Source: a virus. Taken from it: 15,727 nt of DNA. The stretch lies in UHGV virus genome UHGV-0344409. One strand, written 5' to 3'. Below the pieces are notes generated by a model that did no database searches, was not told the origin of the DNA, and saw only the letters and a list, made by a program, of their open reading frames with translations. This document shows, in pieces, positions 7,650 to 12,891 of this stretch (position 1 is the first letter of the stretch; each line of letters begins with the position of its first letter). Made by a program: the position numbers and the translations under genes.

Positions 7650-7958
7650 TTAAACGAAGCGGATCTGGAGTTTTTTCCCTGTAGCACGGGCGAATTTTTT
7701 CAGTGTGGCAAATGATGGGCCGCTTGTACCTGATGCAAGATTGCTTTCCATTCTGGTTATCGCAGTCGCTTTTGTTCCCATACGTTCAGCAACTTCAGCC
7801 TGGGTTAAGCCAGCTTCTTTTCGTGCTGCCAGCATTTCATCAAGTAGTGCGAATTCATCGGCGATGGCGTCGTATTCTGCTTTTACTGCGGGGTTAGACA
7901 ACATTTTTTCTACCATTTCATCGTGTGTCATGGTAGGTGGGGTACGTTTACCAGTCAT
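7650..7958 (-). CDS. HigA-like antitoxin (XRE-family HTH)
   Basis: 102 aa; strong AAGGAGG 6 nt upstream of the ATG at 7958; HTH LTQAEVAERMGTKATAITRME; start overlaps the upstream toxin gene by 11 nt. Confidence 0.75.
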   Translation of the reverse strand: MTGKRTPPTMTHDEMVEKMLSNPAVKAEYDAIADEFALLDEMLAARKEAGLTQAEVAERMGTKATAITRMESNLASGTSGPSFATLKKFARATGKKLQIRFV

Positions 7959-8277
7959 GCTTAACCTCCTTCATTCTGGTTTCAGCTTTTCTAAGCTCGG
8001 CAGGTGGAGTTTTTTGCGTTTTCTTTACAAAGCTATGCAACATAATGATTCGCTTTCCTTTTAGCGTGCAGTAAAAAACACGCCCTATGCCTTCCGAGCC
8101 CTTAAGGCGGATTTCAAACAAACCGTCGCCAAATGCCTCTGTATGCGGGGAACCAAGATTAGCTCCGTAAATACGCATTTTCTCCGTGTACCGAATGTAC
8201 CGGGCTTGTAAGGTCTCAGGAAGAGAAAGGATCTCAGCTTCAACCTCGTCACTGTAGTATTCGATAATGTAGTTCAT
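7948..8277 (-). CDS. HigB/RelE-family toxin (Gp49-like), toxin-first operon
   Basis: 109 aa from the ATG at 8277 (MNYIIEYYSDEVEAEILSLPE...RIIMLHSFVKKTQKTPPAEL), typical of HigB-like toxins; followed by the overlapping HTH antitoxin; candidate promoter TTGTCG-N17-TATATA on the minus strand (8329..8301). Confidence 0.7.
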   Translation of the reverse strand: MNYIIEYYSDEVEAEILSLPETLQARYIRYTEKMRIYGANLGSPHTEAFGDGLFEIRLKGSEGIGRVFYCTLKGKRIIMLHSFVKKTQKTPPAELRKAETRMKEVKHDW

Positions 8278-8300
8278 GAGAGTAAACATAACAAATTTGT

Positions 8301-8349
8301 TATATACATTCAAGGTATGTTGACGACAACACATATCCGGGATTATATT
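8301..8349. promoter_or_regulatory. back-to-back divergent sigma70-like promoters with overlapping -35 elements
   Basis: Plus strand: TTGACG (8320-8325), 17-18 nt spacer, TTATAT/TATATT (8343-8349). Minus strand: TTGTCG (revcomp of 8324-8329), 17 nt spacer, TATATA (8301-8306). Confidence 0.4.
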
Positions 8350-10266: not shown

Positions 10267-10625
10267 ATGAATATGAGTTTGTGCTTCCCTGGCCGCCGAC
10301 GGTGAATACCTACTGGCGAAGACGGGGAAGCCAGTACTACATCAGCGATAAAGGCCAGAAATACCGAAAAGACGTACAGCAAATCATCCGGCAACTCAGA
10401 TTAGACATTTTCACTAAATCACGACTTCGCATCACAATTATTGCTGAACCACCAGATTCCCGCCGTCGCGACCTCGATAACATCCTGAAAGGTTTACTCG
10501 ACTCTCTTATCCACGCCGGATTTGCGGAAGACGACGTGCAATTCGATGACATTCGCGTAATTCGCGGCGTGAAAGTGCTTGGCGGTAGAGTGGGGATAAA
10601 AATCACCGAACTGGAGAACATATGA
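10263..10625 (+). CDS. rusA: RusA Holliday-junction resolvase
   Basis: 120 aa; motifs LPWPPTVNTYW and DSRRRDLDNILKGLLD match RusA; coupled to its flanking genes by ATGA overlaps. Confidence 0.9.
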   Translation: MNEYEFVLPWPPTVNTYWRRRGSQYYISDKGQKYRKDVQQIIRQLRLDIFTKSRLRITIIAEPPDSRRRDLDNILKGLLDSLIHAGFAEDDVQFDDIRVIRGVKVLGGRVGIKITELENI

Positions 10626-10822
10626 ACGCCACAATTCAAACAATACCGGAATTGCTTATCCAGGCACGAGGCAATATGACTGAAGTTTCACGAAAACTGA
10701 ACTGTAATCGTGCTACGGTCAGAAAATATGTCGGTGATAAAGAAGGCAAACGGCACGCCGTCGTCAACGGTGTCCTTATGGTTCATCGTGGATGGGATAA
10801 GGGGAAAGCTACTGATGCGTGA
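10622..10822 (+). CDS. ninH: NinH-like small HTH protein
   Basis: 66 aa; TIPELLIQARGNMTEVSRKLNCNRATVRKYVGDKEGKRHAVVNGVLMVHRGW closely resembles lambda NinH as recalled. Confidence 0.7.
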   Translation: MNATIQTIPELLIQARGNMTEVSRKLNCNRATVRKYVGDKEGKRHAVVNGVLMVHRGWDKGKATDA

Positions 10823-11057
10823 TATTCAGCAGGTGCCTGAACGCATGGCTTTATTCAGGTCGTCTGGAAAAGCGCATGAGCAGCGTAATAGCGGAGTTCA
10901 TGGCGAAGAGTATATGAACAGATTATTCGAATGCTATATGAGACTGAAGCACGGAGATCGCTATGACCTGACACGTGATGCTGACGGTTTCTACTGCCGT
11001 GAAGTTGTGAAACGAATGTTTGAAGTGTGGTGTCATTGTAAAGGATGGGGGCTGTGA
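10815..11057 (+). CDS. hypothetical Cys/His-containing small protein (80 aa), coupled to the downstream Q-position gene
   Basis: ATG at 10815 overlaps the ninH stop; the N-terminus MRDIQ.V.ER recalls the start of some Q-family antiterminators; C-terminus ...FYCREVVKRMFEVWCHCKGW; stop TGA overlaps the next ATG (TGATG). Confidence 0.5.
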   Translation: MRDIQQVPERMALFRSSGKAHEQRNSGVHGEEYMNRLFECYMRLKHGDRYDLTRDADGFYCREVVKRMFEVWCHCKGWGL

Positions 11058-11671
11058 TGCGGCTAACCCCAGTATTCGGCATGGTTAACTTTATTAATGA
11101 TGCTCATTTCCGCCGCATATGGAGGCATCCGAAGAAAATCATTAACTCTCGTCAGAAAGCATGGGTTCACTACATGCTACAGGTATGGGGAAATGTTAAC
11201 GCTGGTGATGATTCTCCTTGTGGTGCAATTAACGTTATTGGGCGACTGATGATTCGCAGTCAGTGGAGCGATGACAAAGCTAAGCAGATTGAGTCTGTTG
11301 TCATGCGTCTGTATGAAGAAGACGGACTACGTGGAGATGAACTCCATCAGAAAGCCCGAGAACTGGTCATCCCTCAGTCATCGGCAGGTAATATCATTGC
11401 TCTCGCCAAAGAATCCGATGATGCTGCTTTCGTTGAACGTGTGATGGTTGAGACCTTTCATCGTGAAAGCCCTGTCCGTGATGTAGCTATTAGGCGATAT
11501 TGCAATCGCGACAGCACGCAAGATATCGCCAGGATGATTTCTCAGATAACAGGAGTTGATATTCAGTATTGCCGGAGGCGGGTCGTGTGGTGCGAGAGGG
11601 TCCTTGATTCAGAAATGTTTTATGCAATGAAGCGAGAATTGGAGAAAGAACTTCTAGTGATTGCTGGATGA
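11057..11671 (+). CDS. putative late-gene regulator at the Q position (family not confirmed)
   Basis: 204 aa, translationally coupled (TGATG at 11055-11059); sits after ninH and immediately before a promoter plus intrinsic terminator; size close to lambda Q. I do not recognise the sequence, so the assignment is positional. Confidence 0.4.
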   Translation: MRLTPVFGMVNFINDAHFRRIWRHPKKIINSRQKAWVHYMLQVWGNVNAGDDSPCGAINVIGRLMIRSQWSDDKAKQIESVVMRLYEEDGLRGDELHQKARELVIPQSSAGNIIALAKESDDAAFVERVMVETFHRESPVRDVAIRRYCNRDSTQDIARMISQITGVDIQYCRRRVVWCERVLDSEMFYAMKRELEKELLVIAG

Positions 11672-11695
11672 TGCAAAATATTTTTTGTAAATGCG

Positions 11696-11724
11696 TTGCT
11701 TTCGAGAAATGAAAGTAGTATGTT
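11696..11724 (+). promoter_or_regulatory. PR'-like late promoter candidate
   Basis: TTGCTT (11696-11701), 17 nt spacer, TATGTT (11719-11724), about 25 nt after the Q-position gene stop. Confidence 0.3.
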
Positions 11725-11831
11725 TTGTGTATGCTCGGAGCAAAAGCGCACTGAGAAGCGAAAGAGAAATCCTGATTTACCTCGGTCGTCGATAATATTT
11801 AGGATCGGCATACTGGCTAGATTAGGTAAAG

Positions 11832-11858
11832 GCCTCGGCAGAAATGTCGGGGCTTTTT
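11832..11858 (+). terminator. tR'-like intrinsic terminator
   Basis: GCCTCGGCA-gaaa-TGTCGGGGC (9-bp stem with two G-U pairs, GNRA loop) followed by TTTTTGTTT. Confidence 0.55.
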
Positions 11859-11990
11859 GTTTGCACAACAGGTAAGAGCATTGAACCCGCAGACCTCGTG
11901 GAATTGGTGAAAGGTGTGCGCAGTGCTCTTATCGTTGTGGTGAAGCTCAATGGCGAGCTAGCAGACAGGCGACTGTGAAAATACTAGTCA

Positions 11991-12062
11991 TGTAGCGGAT
12001 CGCCGCGCGTATTGTAATCGGCAGCGCACCGATGGGAGCTGGTTCGATTCCGGCCGCCACAA
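11991..12062 (+). other. tRNA-like element (possible tRNA pseudogene or remnant)
   Basis: Canonical T-arm GCTGG-TTCGATT-CCGGC (12038-12054); acceptor pairing TGTAGCG (11991-11997) with CGCCACA (12055-12061), one A-C mismatch; perfect anticodon-type stem ATCGG/CCGAT (12017-12033). D-arm and 7-nt loop CAGCGCA are non-canonical and CCA is not encoded. Confidence 0.3.
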
Positions 12063-12181
12063 TCCAAACTGAGCCGTAGCCTCTGGGTGTCCTGAATTCA
12101 TCAGTGATAGTTACGCTGCGGCCTTCTACATACGATTTTTGTGAAAAGCGGGTGGCAAGAGGCTGCGAAATTTTTAAATAC

Positions 12182-12399
12182 CTCACAATTCCACAGCTTG
12201 ATGATTGTCTGGCTGCCGGAGAATTTGTTAAAAATTGCATCGCGTGGTGAATCCCCCTCAGCGGCGGGGCATCTGGCAAAGTGTATGATCCAGCGAACAT
12301 GCAAATTCAGTAGCCAGGCTGAATTTACCGGGAGGCACCTGGCACCATGCGACAGACAGAAATTAGGCTATACTTCAGCCCCTCTCCGGAGGGGCTTTT
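12182..12399 (+). repeat. structured non-coding repeat unit, copy A (candidate sRNA), ending in an intrinsic terminator
   Basis: Ordered conserved blocks shared with copy B: CTCACAATTC, GATTGTCTGG, TTTGTTAAAAA, GGTGAATCCCCCT, GCGGnGGGGCAT, CACCGGGAGGCACC, CACCATGC. Hairpin AAATTCAG-tagccagg-CTGAATTT (12303-12326); terminator GCCCCTC-tccg-GAGGGGC-TTTT (12378-12399). Confidence 0.6.
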
Positions 12400-12589
12400 C
12401 TGTGCAGGATGTGTCACAGTTTCCTGAATTCTGAGTACTGTCCTGTTACTCAGGGTGCTATATTTTCTGACGTGATGAAAGTCTGCCGGAAGGCGGAACG
12501 TATCGGAAATGACCCAGTAGAGAAAACGTTGACTCAGATACCGATGCTGAGTTACCGGGAAACCGGCATCACATGACCGCTATCCTTCC

Positions 12590-12613
12590 AGGCTCGCTCC
12601 GGCGGGCCTTTTT
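12590..12613 (+). terminator. intrinsic terminator between the two repeat copies
   Basis: AGGCTCGC-tccg-GCGGGCCT followed by TTTT; same TCCG loop as the copy A and B terminators. Confidence 0.5.
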
Positions 12614-12650
12614 ACTGCAGAAAACAGTTTTCCCGTAAAATGCCACGTTA

Positions 12651-12882
12651 CTCACAATTCAGGCTGGCGATTATTGTCTGGCCAGCGGGAAGTTTGTTAA
12701 AAAAATATGGCATGGTGAATCCCCCTGTGCGGAGGGGCATATCAGCGACAGGTGTTTGGTCACACCCCTTATCCTTTCTGGTGCGGGTTCAGGTGCTGAT
12801 ACTGAACTCACCGGGAGGCACCCTGCACCATGCATGAACGGTACATAGCGCTACTCTCCAGCCCCTCTCCGGAGGGGCTTTC
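12651..12882 (+). repeat. structured non-coding repeat unit, copy B (candidate sRNA), ending in an intrinsic terminator
   Basis: Same block order as copy A; hairpin GGTTCAG-gtgctgata-CTGAACT (12786-12808) carries a compensatory A-T to G-C change relative to copy A; terminator GCCCCTC-tccg-GAGGGGC-TTTC (12861-12882). Confidence 0.6.
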
Positions 12883-12891
12883 TTGTTGGAT

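What the first reader, a model, noticed from the sequence alone, without database searches (positions are those of the whole stretch)
10815..11671. Unrecognised coupled gene pair (80 aa plus 204 aa) at the Q position
The two ORFs are linked by a TGATG stop-start overlap and sit between ninH and the PR'-like promoter, exactly where the late antiterminator Q belongs. I do not recognise either sequence as a lambda-, 82- or 21-type Q. The small protein has a Cys/His cluster (C..C...CHC) and an MRDIQ start; the large one has scattered Cys. It could be a split or two-component antiterminator, or a different late regulator.
Basis: inference. Interest (0 to 1): 0.5.

Follow-up and report, generated by a model that had tools for sequence, protein, structure and literature searches.

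The report
Divergent Q21-type late-gene antiterminator cassette
The 204-aa gene is a very divergent relative of the phage 21 Q antiterminator, sitting in front of its own promoter, pause site and terminator, while the "80-aa partner" is a leftover piece of an older Q gene run together with an unrelated small phage gene, so this is not a two-part regulator.

Summary
Both ORFs exist as described: 10815-11057 (80 aa) and 11057-11671 (204 aa), joined by a TGATG overlap, between ninH and a promoter/terminator unit.

The 204-aa protein has no Pfam or NCBIfam hit. It is nevertheless a distant member of the Q21 antiterminator superfamily:
- PHROG 753 "Q-like", E 3e-68.
- Profile-profile match to the Q21 family is 95%, E 3.7e-8.
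- Intermediate relatives pass Pfam PF06530/DUF1133.

It differs from Q21 by a ~40-residue insertion in the region that forms the Q21 "torus", and by a short HTH turn.

In 52 loci from many Enterobacterales genera, the gene is followed by a promoter, a near-invariant -10-like TATGCTCGG in the first transcribed bases, and a terminator. The upstream DNA varies together with the protein's recognition helix.

The 80-aa ORF is a chimera. Codons 1-33 read, out of frame, a relic of a Q21-family Q gene carrying an 8-bp deletion. Codons 34-80 are a widespread 47-aa phage protein that usually sits next to xis and is absent from 48 of 52 Q-like loci. The split or two-component idea is not supported.

Verdict: a new variant of a known kind, of moderate interest.

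The parts
10622..10822 (+). ninH (context). Its stop overlaps the ATG at 10815 by 8 nt, the same junction as ninH-Q in other E. coli prophages.
   Evidence: Pfam PF06322 E 3.2e-29; the junction is homologous to ninH/'antiterminator Q family protein' junctions.
10815..10913 (+). Relic of the 5' end of a Q21-family Q gene. The first ~10 codons resemble MRDIRQVLE of a 144-aa Q. Then 10843-10917 encodes AWLYSGRLEKRMSSVIAEFMAKSI* in the +1 frame, matching Q21 residues 25-44. An 8-bp deletion removes the WG codons and breaks the frame.
   Evidence: blastn: 10740-10844 is ~80% identical to ninH-Q junctions, and 10842-10906 is 92-95% identical to the inside of Q21-type genes. Alignment and translations. 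L055 Q is Q21.
10815..11057 (+). It is a chimeric reading frame: 33 relic-derived codons plus the 47-aa gene.
10914..11057 (+). 47-aa conserved small phage protein (phrog_3871 family; helix, beta-hairpin, helix). Function unknown. Its stop overlaps the Q-like start (TGATG).
11057..11671 (+). Q-like late antiterminator: a divergent Q21-superfamily protein of 204 aa.
11675..11692 (+). AT-rich element (AAAATATTTTTTGTAAAT) just upstream of the -35, conserved in class I loci. Possibly an UP-like element or part of the Q-binding region (inferred).
   Evidence: Conserved non-coding sequence.
11696..11724 (+). PR'-like promoter: -35 TTGCTT (11696-11701), 17-bp spacer, -10 TATGTT (11719-11724). The spacer holds GAGAAATGAAAG (11704-11715), the candidate Q-binding element.
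   Evidence: Sequence; conserved with the Q-like gene in other phages; the spacer motif class tracks the recognition-helix class.
11730..11738 (+). TATGCTCGG: a -10-like hexamer (TATGCT) 5 nt after the promoter -10, so in the first transcribed bases. Candidate sigma70-dependent pause element.
   Evidence: At most 1 mismatch in 43 of 52 loci and at most 2 in 50 of 52, at a fixed distance from the -10; a single exact copy in the window; the Q21-type prophage has CATAAT-7 nt-TAAGCT at the same place.
11827..11861 (+). tR'-like intrinsic terminator (AAAGGCCTCGGC-AGAAAT-GTCGGGGCTTT, then a T-tract).
   Evidence: 46 of 52 loci have such a hairpin 55-225 nt after the motif.

Best explanation
Window 10914-11861 is a self-contained late-switch cassette. 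It holds a small accessory gene, a Q-like gene, a PR'-like promoter with a Q-binding element, a sigma-dependent pause element and a terminator. At some point it replaced a Q21-family Q cassette, leaving the first ~100 bp of the old Q gene at 10815-10913.

Proposed mechanism of the 204-aa protein (inferred by homology with Q21):
1. It is translated from the delayed-early transcript, coupled to the preceding ORF.
2. It binds through its C-terminal sigma-R4-like HTH to DNA overlapping the promoter spacer.
3. It engages RNA polymerase held by sigma70 at the -10-like TATGCT in the first transcribed bases.
4. It rides with the elongation complex and suppresses hairpin-dependent termination at 11827-11861 and at the further terminators before the late genes.

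The 47-aa protein is an unrelated small phage protein carried along with the cassette. The 80-aa reading frame arises only because the 8-bp deletion in the Q relic puts the old Q start codon in frame with it.
For: Shown here:
- Family relatives P0191, P0202 and P0203 pass the Pfam gathering scores of DUF1133 and/or PF06530. Q21 itself hits both models. PF06530 is the Q21 family (PMC9388147).
- Position: after ninH and before the lysis genes. In P22-like UPF_BP1 it sits exactly where gene 23 does.
- The cis cassette is conserved in 52 loci: promoter, TATGCTCGG, terminator.
- The recognition-helix class co-varies with the upstream DNA class. D(I/V)Q..R(R/K)RV.WC goes with GAGAAAT. KEARNRxEWA goes with ATAGCACGAATAGCTAAAGACAAAGGGCA. 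Serratia loci L011 and L013 fall in different classes despite equal overall divergence.
- At least four terminators lie before the late genes.
- No other Q is annotated in the prophage.
- Relic.
- The small protein is not a conserved partner.

Inferred, not shown: DNA binding, pausing, RNAP loading and antitermination.
Against: - There is no experimental evidence for any member of this subfamily.
- The window protein itself has no Pfam or NCBIfam hit even at E<1.
- Its own narrow profile matches Q21 only weakly (E 0.86, probability 22%).
- The AF2 model is only moderately confident (pLDDT 74), with three segments below 50.
- Foldseek E-values are weak (0.05-0.45).
- The transcription start and pause site are not mapped.
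- The ~40-residue insertion lies in the part that forms the Q21 torus, so the details of RNAP engagement could differ.
- The small-protein family is upstream of the Q-like gene in 4 of 52 loci in three genera (Escherichia, Intestinirhabdus, Serratia). That is more than nothing.
Confidence: 0.82

Rival explanations
1. Two-component or split antiterminator: the small protein (80 or 47 aa) is an obligatory partner of the 204-aa protein, for example by supplying a zinc-binding module.
For: TGATG coupling in the window and in Intestinirhabdus L004. The family is also found just upstream of the Q-like gene in Serratia L011 and L013. Cys/His residues C61, C73, H74 and C75 are conserved.
Against: - 48 of 52 Q-like loci have other, mutually unrelated ORFs upstream (NinH, RusA, NinG, several 40-86-aa families), usually with the same kind of start/stop overlap.
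- Of 44 phage records with a small-protein homologue, only PhiR5_2 is also among the 29 phage records with the Q-like protein. The homologues sit mostly at the int end, for example between DUF4222 and xis in BP-4795.
- Residues 1-33 have no homologues beyond near-identical copies and are an out-of-frame relic.
- Q21 acts without such a partner (10.1101/651190).
Confidence: 0.05
2. The 204-aa protein is a late-promoter activator or alternative sigma-like factor, using its sigma-R4-like HTH to start transcription rather than to prevent termination.
Against: - The downstream promoter already has good sigma70 -35/-10 or extended -10 elements.
- A terminator follows within 55-225 nt in 46 of 52 loci, and a -10-like element sits in the transcribed region. 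Neither has a role in simple activation.
Confidence: 0.08
3. The 204-aa gene is a non-functional or non-regulatory passenger, and late expression depends on something else in the prophage.
For: RefSeq names it 'hypothetical protein'. Several structural genes of the copy in strain G1/2 are frameshifted.
Against: - The family is under clear purifying selection across genera, with 33 invariant positions among 26 sequences down to 46% identity.
- No other Q is annotated.
- An identical gene is carried by phage PhiR5_2, whose record names E. coli K-12 MG1655 as host.
Confidence: 0.04

Closest known systems
Q21, antiterminator Q of phage 21 (Pfam PF06530 / DUF1133 PF06576; PDB 6P18, 6P19, 6JNX)
   Same: - Shared N-terminal Q..W....L.WG motif and DD(D/A) motif at the start of the next conserved helix.
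- C-terminal sigma-R4-like DNA-binding HTH.
- Same genome position.
- Same cassette layout: gene, promoter with an overlapping binding element, a -10-like element a few bases after the -10 (TAAGCT in the Q21-type prophage L055, TATGCT here), then a terminator.
   Different: - No direct Pfam or NCBIfam hit; about 15% identity.
- 204 aa against 162 aa.
- About 40 extra residues (roughly 69-106, two predicted helices) inserted where the alignment places Q21 'ESVEPGR', which I take from memory to be its H2-H3 linker; that linker helps form the RNA-exit-channel torus (10.1101/651190).
- Q21's long HT[loop]H loop is replaced by a short turn.
- Different upstream DNA motifs.
- Activity is untested.
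Q-lambda (PF03589) and Q82 (PF06323)
   Same: Same regulatory role and genome position; same kind of promoter-proximal pause/terminator cassette.
   Different: No sequence match to either family. Q-lambda is reported not to be a structural homologue of Q21 (PMC9388147).
PHROG 753 'anti-termination protein Q-like' (for example ST64B Sb49, Cronobacter phage ENT47670 gp21, Salmonella phage UPF_BP1 gp24)
   Same: The window protein is a full-length member (E 3.3e-68) and is 84-86% identical to the ENT47670, UPF_BP1 and 29485 proteins.
   Different: The name is a computational label. I found no paper that tests or describes these proteins.
phrog_3871, a 47-49-aa 'bacteriophage protein' (for example BP-4795 ORF3)
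   Same: Residues 34-80 of the small ORF are 60-85% identical to members.
   Different: Here it sits in the nin/Q region instead of beside xis, and it carries a 33-codon relic-derived extension if translated from 10815.

Membership tests
Q21-type antiterminator (Pfam PF06530 Phage_antitermQ / PF06576 DUF1133) | The protein itself scores above the Pfam gathering threshold. | tested here: not met
   No hit at E<1 for the window protein, and none in NCBIfam. Family relatives do pass: P0191 (DUF1133 26.2 against 23.1 bits), P0202, and P0203 (PF06530 36.2 against 26 bits).
Q21-type antiterminator (Pfam PF06530 Phage_antitermQ / PF06576 DUF1133) | Homology detectable by profile-profile comparison with Q21 relatives. 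| tested here: met
   hhalign A3 against A6: probability 95%, E 3.7e-8, 125 columns, residues 28-192 against Q21 7-143. The narrow profile A1 is weaker (22%).
Q21-type antiterminator (Pfam PF06530 Phage_antitermQ / PF06576 DUF1133) | Q21 three-dimensional fold. | tested here: met
   [not shown]
Q21-type antiterminator (Pfam PF06530 Phage_antitermQ / PF06576 DUF1133) | The gene lies immediately upstream of a promoter, a promoter-proximal -10-like pause element, a terminator and the late genes. | tested here: met
   Window 11696-11861. The layout is conserved in 52 loci. Lysis genes lie downstream.
Q21-type antiterminator (Pfam PF06530 Phage_antitermQ / PF06576 DUF1133) | HT[loop]H DNA-binding motif with a long loop. 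| tested here: not met
   In the hhalign alignment, about 12 residues of Q21 (roughly 107-118, inside ...PRKMCGRGGEGWRKPS...) fall opposite a gap in the window protein, which has a short turn instead.
Q21-type antiterminator (Pfam PF06530 Phage_antitermQ / PF06576 DUF1133) | Sequence-specific binding to a QBE, loading on sigma70-paused RNAP, and processive antitermination. | not testable with these tools
   Indirect evidence only: recognition helix and upstream DNA co-vary.
Q-lambda family (PF03589) and Q82 family (PF06323) | Match to the family HMM. | tested here: not met
   No hit at E<1.
Two-component (split) antiterminator | The two genes co-occur consistently across relatives. | tested here: not met
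   The small family is upstream in 4 of 52 Q-like loci. Only 1 phage record is shared between the 44 with the small protein and the 29 with the Q-like protein.
phrog_3871 small phage protein | Full-length match to the 48-position profile. | tested here: met
   E 1.8e-26, residues 34-77 against profile positions 1-44 of 48; alignments.

The most novel reading that the evidence does not exclude
The Q-like subfamily is a structurally elaborated fourth working class of Q. Its conserved but low-confidence segments (VIGRLMIR, IIALAKESDDAAF) and its inserted two-helix module would build an RNA-exit-channel nozzle different from that of Q21. Its natural recognition-helix/QBE classes (at least three) would be mutually orthogonal switches that all use one invariant sigma70 pause element. 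A weaker add-on: in the subset of phages that carry it next to Q, the 47-aa protein modulates this Q.
Probability: 0.2. Interest if true: 0.55.

Novelty: new variant of a known kind. Interest (0 to 1): 0.35.

Why it matters
- Q proteins are textbook antiterminators described as three families (PMC9388147). This subfamily escapes the Pfam and NCBIfam models, so RefSeq leaves it as 'hypothetical' in E. coli genomes. Prophages carrying it therefore look as if they have no late regulator.
- Linking it to Q21 gives these prophages a late switch.
- It offers a natural variant with an insertion in the nozzle-forming region, useful for testing how general the nozzle mechanism is.
- It provides matched protein/DNA specificity classes that share one pause element.
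- The relic at 10815-10913 is a clean record of Q-cassette replacement by recombination inside the conserved WGAW-coding stretch.
- For annotation, the 80-aa ORF should not be called as such without evidence.

Tried and rejected
- Pfam, NCBIfam and PADLOC scans of both proteins gave nothing useful.
- phmmer and hmmsearch against PDB sequences gave only a spurious ERp29 match (E about 1e-3) and a marginal Q21 match (E 0.86).
- hhalign with single-sequence templates was inconclusive (46% and 10%). It became significant only with broad alignments on both sides.
- The exhaustive representative search found only 41 clusters. The family is small and nearly confined to Enterobacterales.
- ARAGORN found no tRNA genes in the window.
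- Literature searches for DUF1133, for Q-like/ST64B and for PhiR5 found no paper that characterises this protein family.
- The promoter scan did not report the PR'-like promoter because TTGCTT/TATGTT falls below its 9-of-12 rule. I read it directly and through conservation.

Full report
**Observation.** The window is a lambdoid E. coli prophage. Over the Q region it is identical to phage PhiR5_2 (PV340546) and to prophages in 18 of 5426 complete E. coli genomes. The small one runs 10815-11057 (80 aa) and the large one 11057-11671 (204 aa), joined by a TGATG stop/start overlap. Upstream lie YbcO, RusA and NinH, all with clear Pfam hits. Downstream I read a promoter-like TTGCTT-17 bp-TATGTT (11696-11724) and a hairpin plus T-tract at 11827-11861.

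**The 204-aa protein: what it matches.** It has no Pfam, NCBIfam or PADLOC hit even at E<1, and RefSeq calls it hypothetical. It is a full-length member of PHROG 753, 'anti-termination protein Q-like' (E 3.3e-68). It has 214 relatives in the 5.8-billion-protein collection, but only 41 clusters in the exhaustive 50%-representative search. The named ones are Enterobacterales prophages, so the family is small.

**The 204-aa protein: three links to Q21.**
- Profile-profile comparison. A broad family alignment (A3) compared with a Q21-family alignment (A6) gives 95% probability and E 3.7e-8 over residues 28-192. The match includes the N-terminal Q..W....L.WG signature and the DD(D/A) signature, both invariant in each family.
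- Intermediates. Distant family members P0191, P0202 and P0203 pass the gathering thresholds of Pfam DUF1133 and/or PF06530. Q21 relatives hit both models. PF06530 is the Q21 family as defined in PMC9388147.

**How it differs from Q21.**
- About 40 extra residues (roughly 69-106, two predicted helices) are inserted where the alignment places Q21 'ESVEPGR'. Placing that segment in the H2-H3 linker is from my memory of the structure. That linker is part of the segment that refolds into the Q21 torus (10.1101/651190).
- Q21's long HT[loop]H loop is absent.

**The cis cassette.** I fetched 51 genomic loci and several phage loci that encode relatives at 37-86% identity.
- In 50 of 52 loci, a TATGCTCGG-like nonamer (at most 2 mismatches; at most 1 in 43 loci) lies 35-84 nt after the stop codon. 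The one exception is L014, where the motif starts 17 nt before the assigned stop. In most loci the nonamer follows a -10-like hexamer by about 5 nt.
- It contains a -10-like TATGCT. Given its spacing from the -10, it falls in the first transcribed bases.
- 46 of 52 loci have a terminator-like hairpin with a T-tract 55-225 nt further on.
- This is the Q regulatory cassette as defined for Q21: promoter, sigma-dependent pause element, terminator.
- The Q21-type prophage L055 shows the same local layout, TTGACA-18 bp-CATAAT-7 nt-TAAGCT. This is my reading of the sequence, not a mapped site.

**Specificity.** The DNA just upstream of and overlapping the promoter falls into classes, and these classes track the predicted recognition helix.
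- D(I/V)Q..R(R/K)RV.WC goes with ..G.GAAAT.. in the spacer plus an AT-rich AAATATTTT box. The window belongs to this class.
- KEARNRxEWA goes with ATAGCACGAATAGCTAAAGACAAAGGGCA.
- The Xenorhabdus DLDSAKRRVRW class has a third sequence.

Two Serratia loci at equal overall divergence (L011, L013) belong to different classes, so the pairing is not simply phylogeny. The pause element stays constant. That is expected if host sigma70 reads it while the phage protein reads the upstream element. This is indirect evidence for a Q-binding element.

**Need for antitermination.** The window has 15 terminator-like sites between 10500 and 13200, against 2.7 expected. They include tR' and three more on the + strand, which end STnc100-type sRNA units. 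All lie before the esterase and lysis genes. No other Q is annotated between int and the tail genes.

**The small ORF: the conserved part.** Only residues 34-80 are conserved. They belong to a 47-49-aa family (phrog_3871). PGAP calls the gene from 10914. The family folds confidently as helix, beta-hairpin, helix (pLDDT 91.5) but matches no solved fold. In other phages its homologues lie mostly at the int end. In BP-4795 the gene lies between DUF4222 and xis.

**The small ORF: the first 99 bp are a relic.**
- 10740-10844 matches ninH-Q junctions of Q21-family genes (MRDIRQVLERWGAW...).
- 10842-10906 is 92-95% identical to codons 25-45 of Q21-type genes.
- In the +1 frame, 10843-10917 reads AWLYSGRLEKRMSSVIAEFMAKSI*, compared with Q21 AWVYSGRLEKRMSSVIAKFME.
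- Relative to Q21, 8 bp (CTGTGGGG, the WG codons) are missing. As a result the old Q start codon at 10815 now runs in frame into the 47-aa gene.
- In the original Q frame, the relic stops at a TGA that overlaps the ATG at 10914.

**Is the small protein a partner of Q?** The gene directly upstream of the Q-like gene differs widely among loci: NinH, RusA, NinG, or at least five unrelated small ORF families. It usually has a 1-, 4- or 11-nt overlap with the Q-like gene. Coupling is therefore a property of the Q-like gene's start, not of this pair. The 47-aa family is upstream in 4 of 52 loci:
- the window (with its identical phage copy L001) and Intestinirhabdus L004, both with the same TGATG overlap;
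- Serratia L011;
- Serratia L013, more distantly.

The L004 arrangement shows that a [47-aa gene + Q-like + qut] block exists elsewhere, with the small gene starting at its own ATG. A cofactor role is therefore unlikely, though it is not excluded for that subset.

**Conclusion.** However, the protein is not a new kind of regulator and not a split one. It is a divergent Q21-superfamily antiterminator with its own conserved qut site. The '80-aa partner' is a relic-plus-passenger chimera. Binding, pausing and antitermination are inferred from homology and anatomy, not shown.

Noticed in passing
window 12212-12405, 12441-12616, 12681-12890 (+): Two strong Rfam STnc100 sRNA matches (139 and 130 bits) and one sub-threshold match (30 bits) lie in tandem between tR' and the late genes. 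Each ends in a terminator-like hairpin (12377-12396, 12590-12609, 12860-12879). A Q-modified polymerase would have to read through all of them.
   Followed up: partly
window 11859-11885; L055 1996-2030; also L004, L034, L047 just after their terminators: The sequence GTTTGCACAACAGGTAAGAGCATTG directly after tR' is shared with a Q21-type prophage and with distant Q-like loci. It looks like the right-hand mosaic joint of exchangeable Q cassettes.
   Followed up: no
loci L006, L007, L008, L013, L019, L046, L049, between the TATGCTCGG motif and the terminator: A conserved leader segment of about 120 nt (GGTGGTGAGATAA...GAGGCGGC...CTCACCAC...CCGCCTAGTTGGT...ACTCCAACC...GGCTGAGAGGTCTG) is present in some Q-like cassettes and absent from the window. 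It may be a structured leader RNA or an sRNA.
   Followed up: no
window 12033-12103 (+): A tRNA-like 3' fragment (..GGTTCGATTCCGGCCGCCACA..) gives only a weak tmRNA-clan hit (13.5 bits), and ARAGORN finds no tRNA. It may be a remnant of the tRNA genes that Stx-type phages carry at this position.
   Followed up: partly
window about 7681-8308 (-): A RelE/ParE-family toxin plus HTH antitoxin pair (annotated HigB/HigA in PhiR5_2) sits on the opposite strand inside the replication/nin region.
   Followed up: no
window 11947-12300 (-): A 117-aa minus-strand ORF is annotated as hypothetical in PhiR5_2 but not by PGAP. It overlaps the first STnc100-like unit and is probably not a gene.
   Followed up: no
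P0202 and P0203 (database proteins, not in the window): Distant relatives of the Q-like family occur as 366-379-aa fusions with an N-terminal HNH_3 (and AP2-like) domain.
   Followed up: no
window protein residues 61-68 and 113-125 (11237-11260, 11393-11431): The most conserved segments of the family (VIGRLMIR, IIALAKESDDAAF) overlap segments where the AlphaFold confidence is below 50. This fits parts that fold only on binding RNA polymerase, as reported for the Q21 torus.
   Followed up: no
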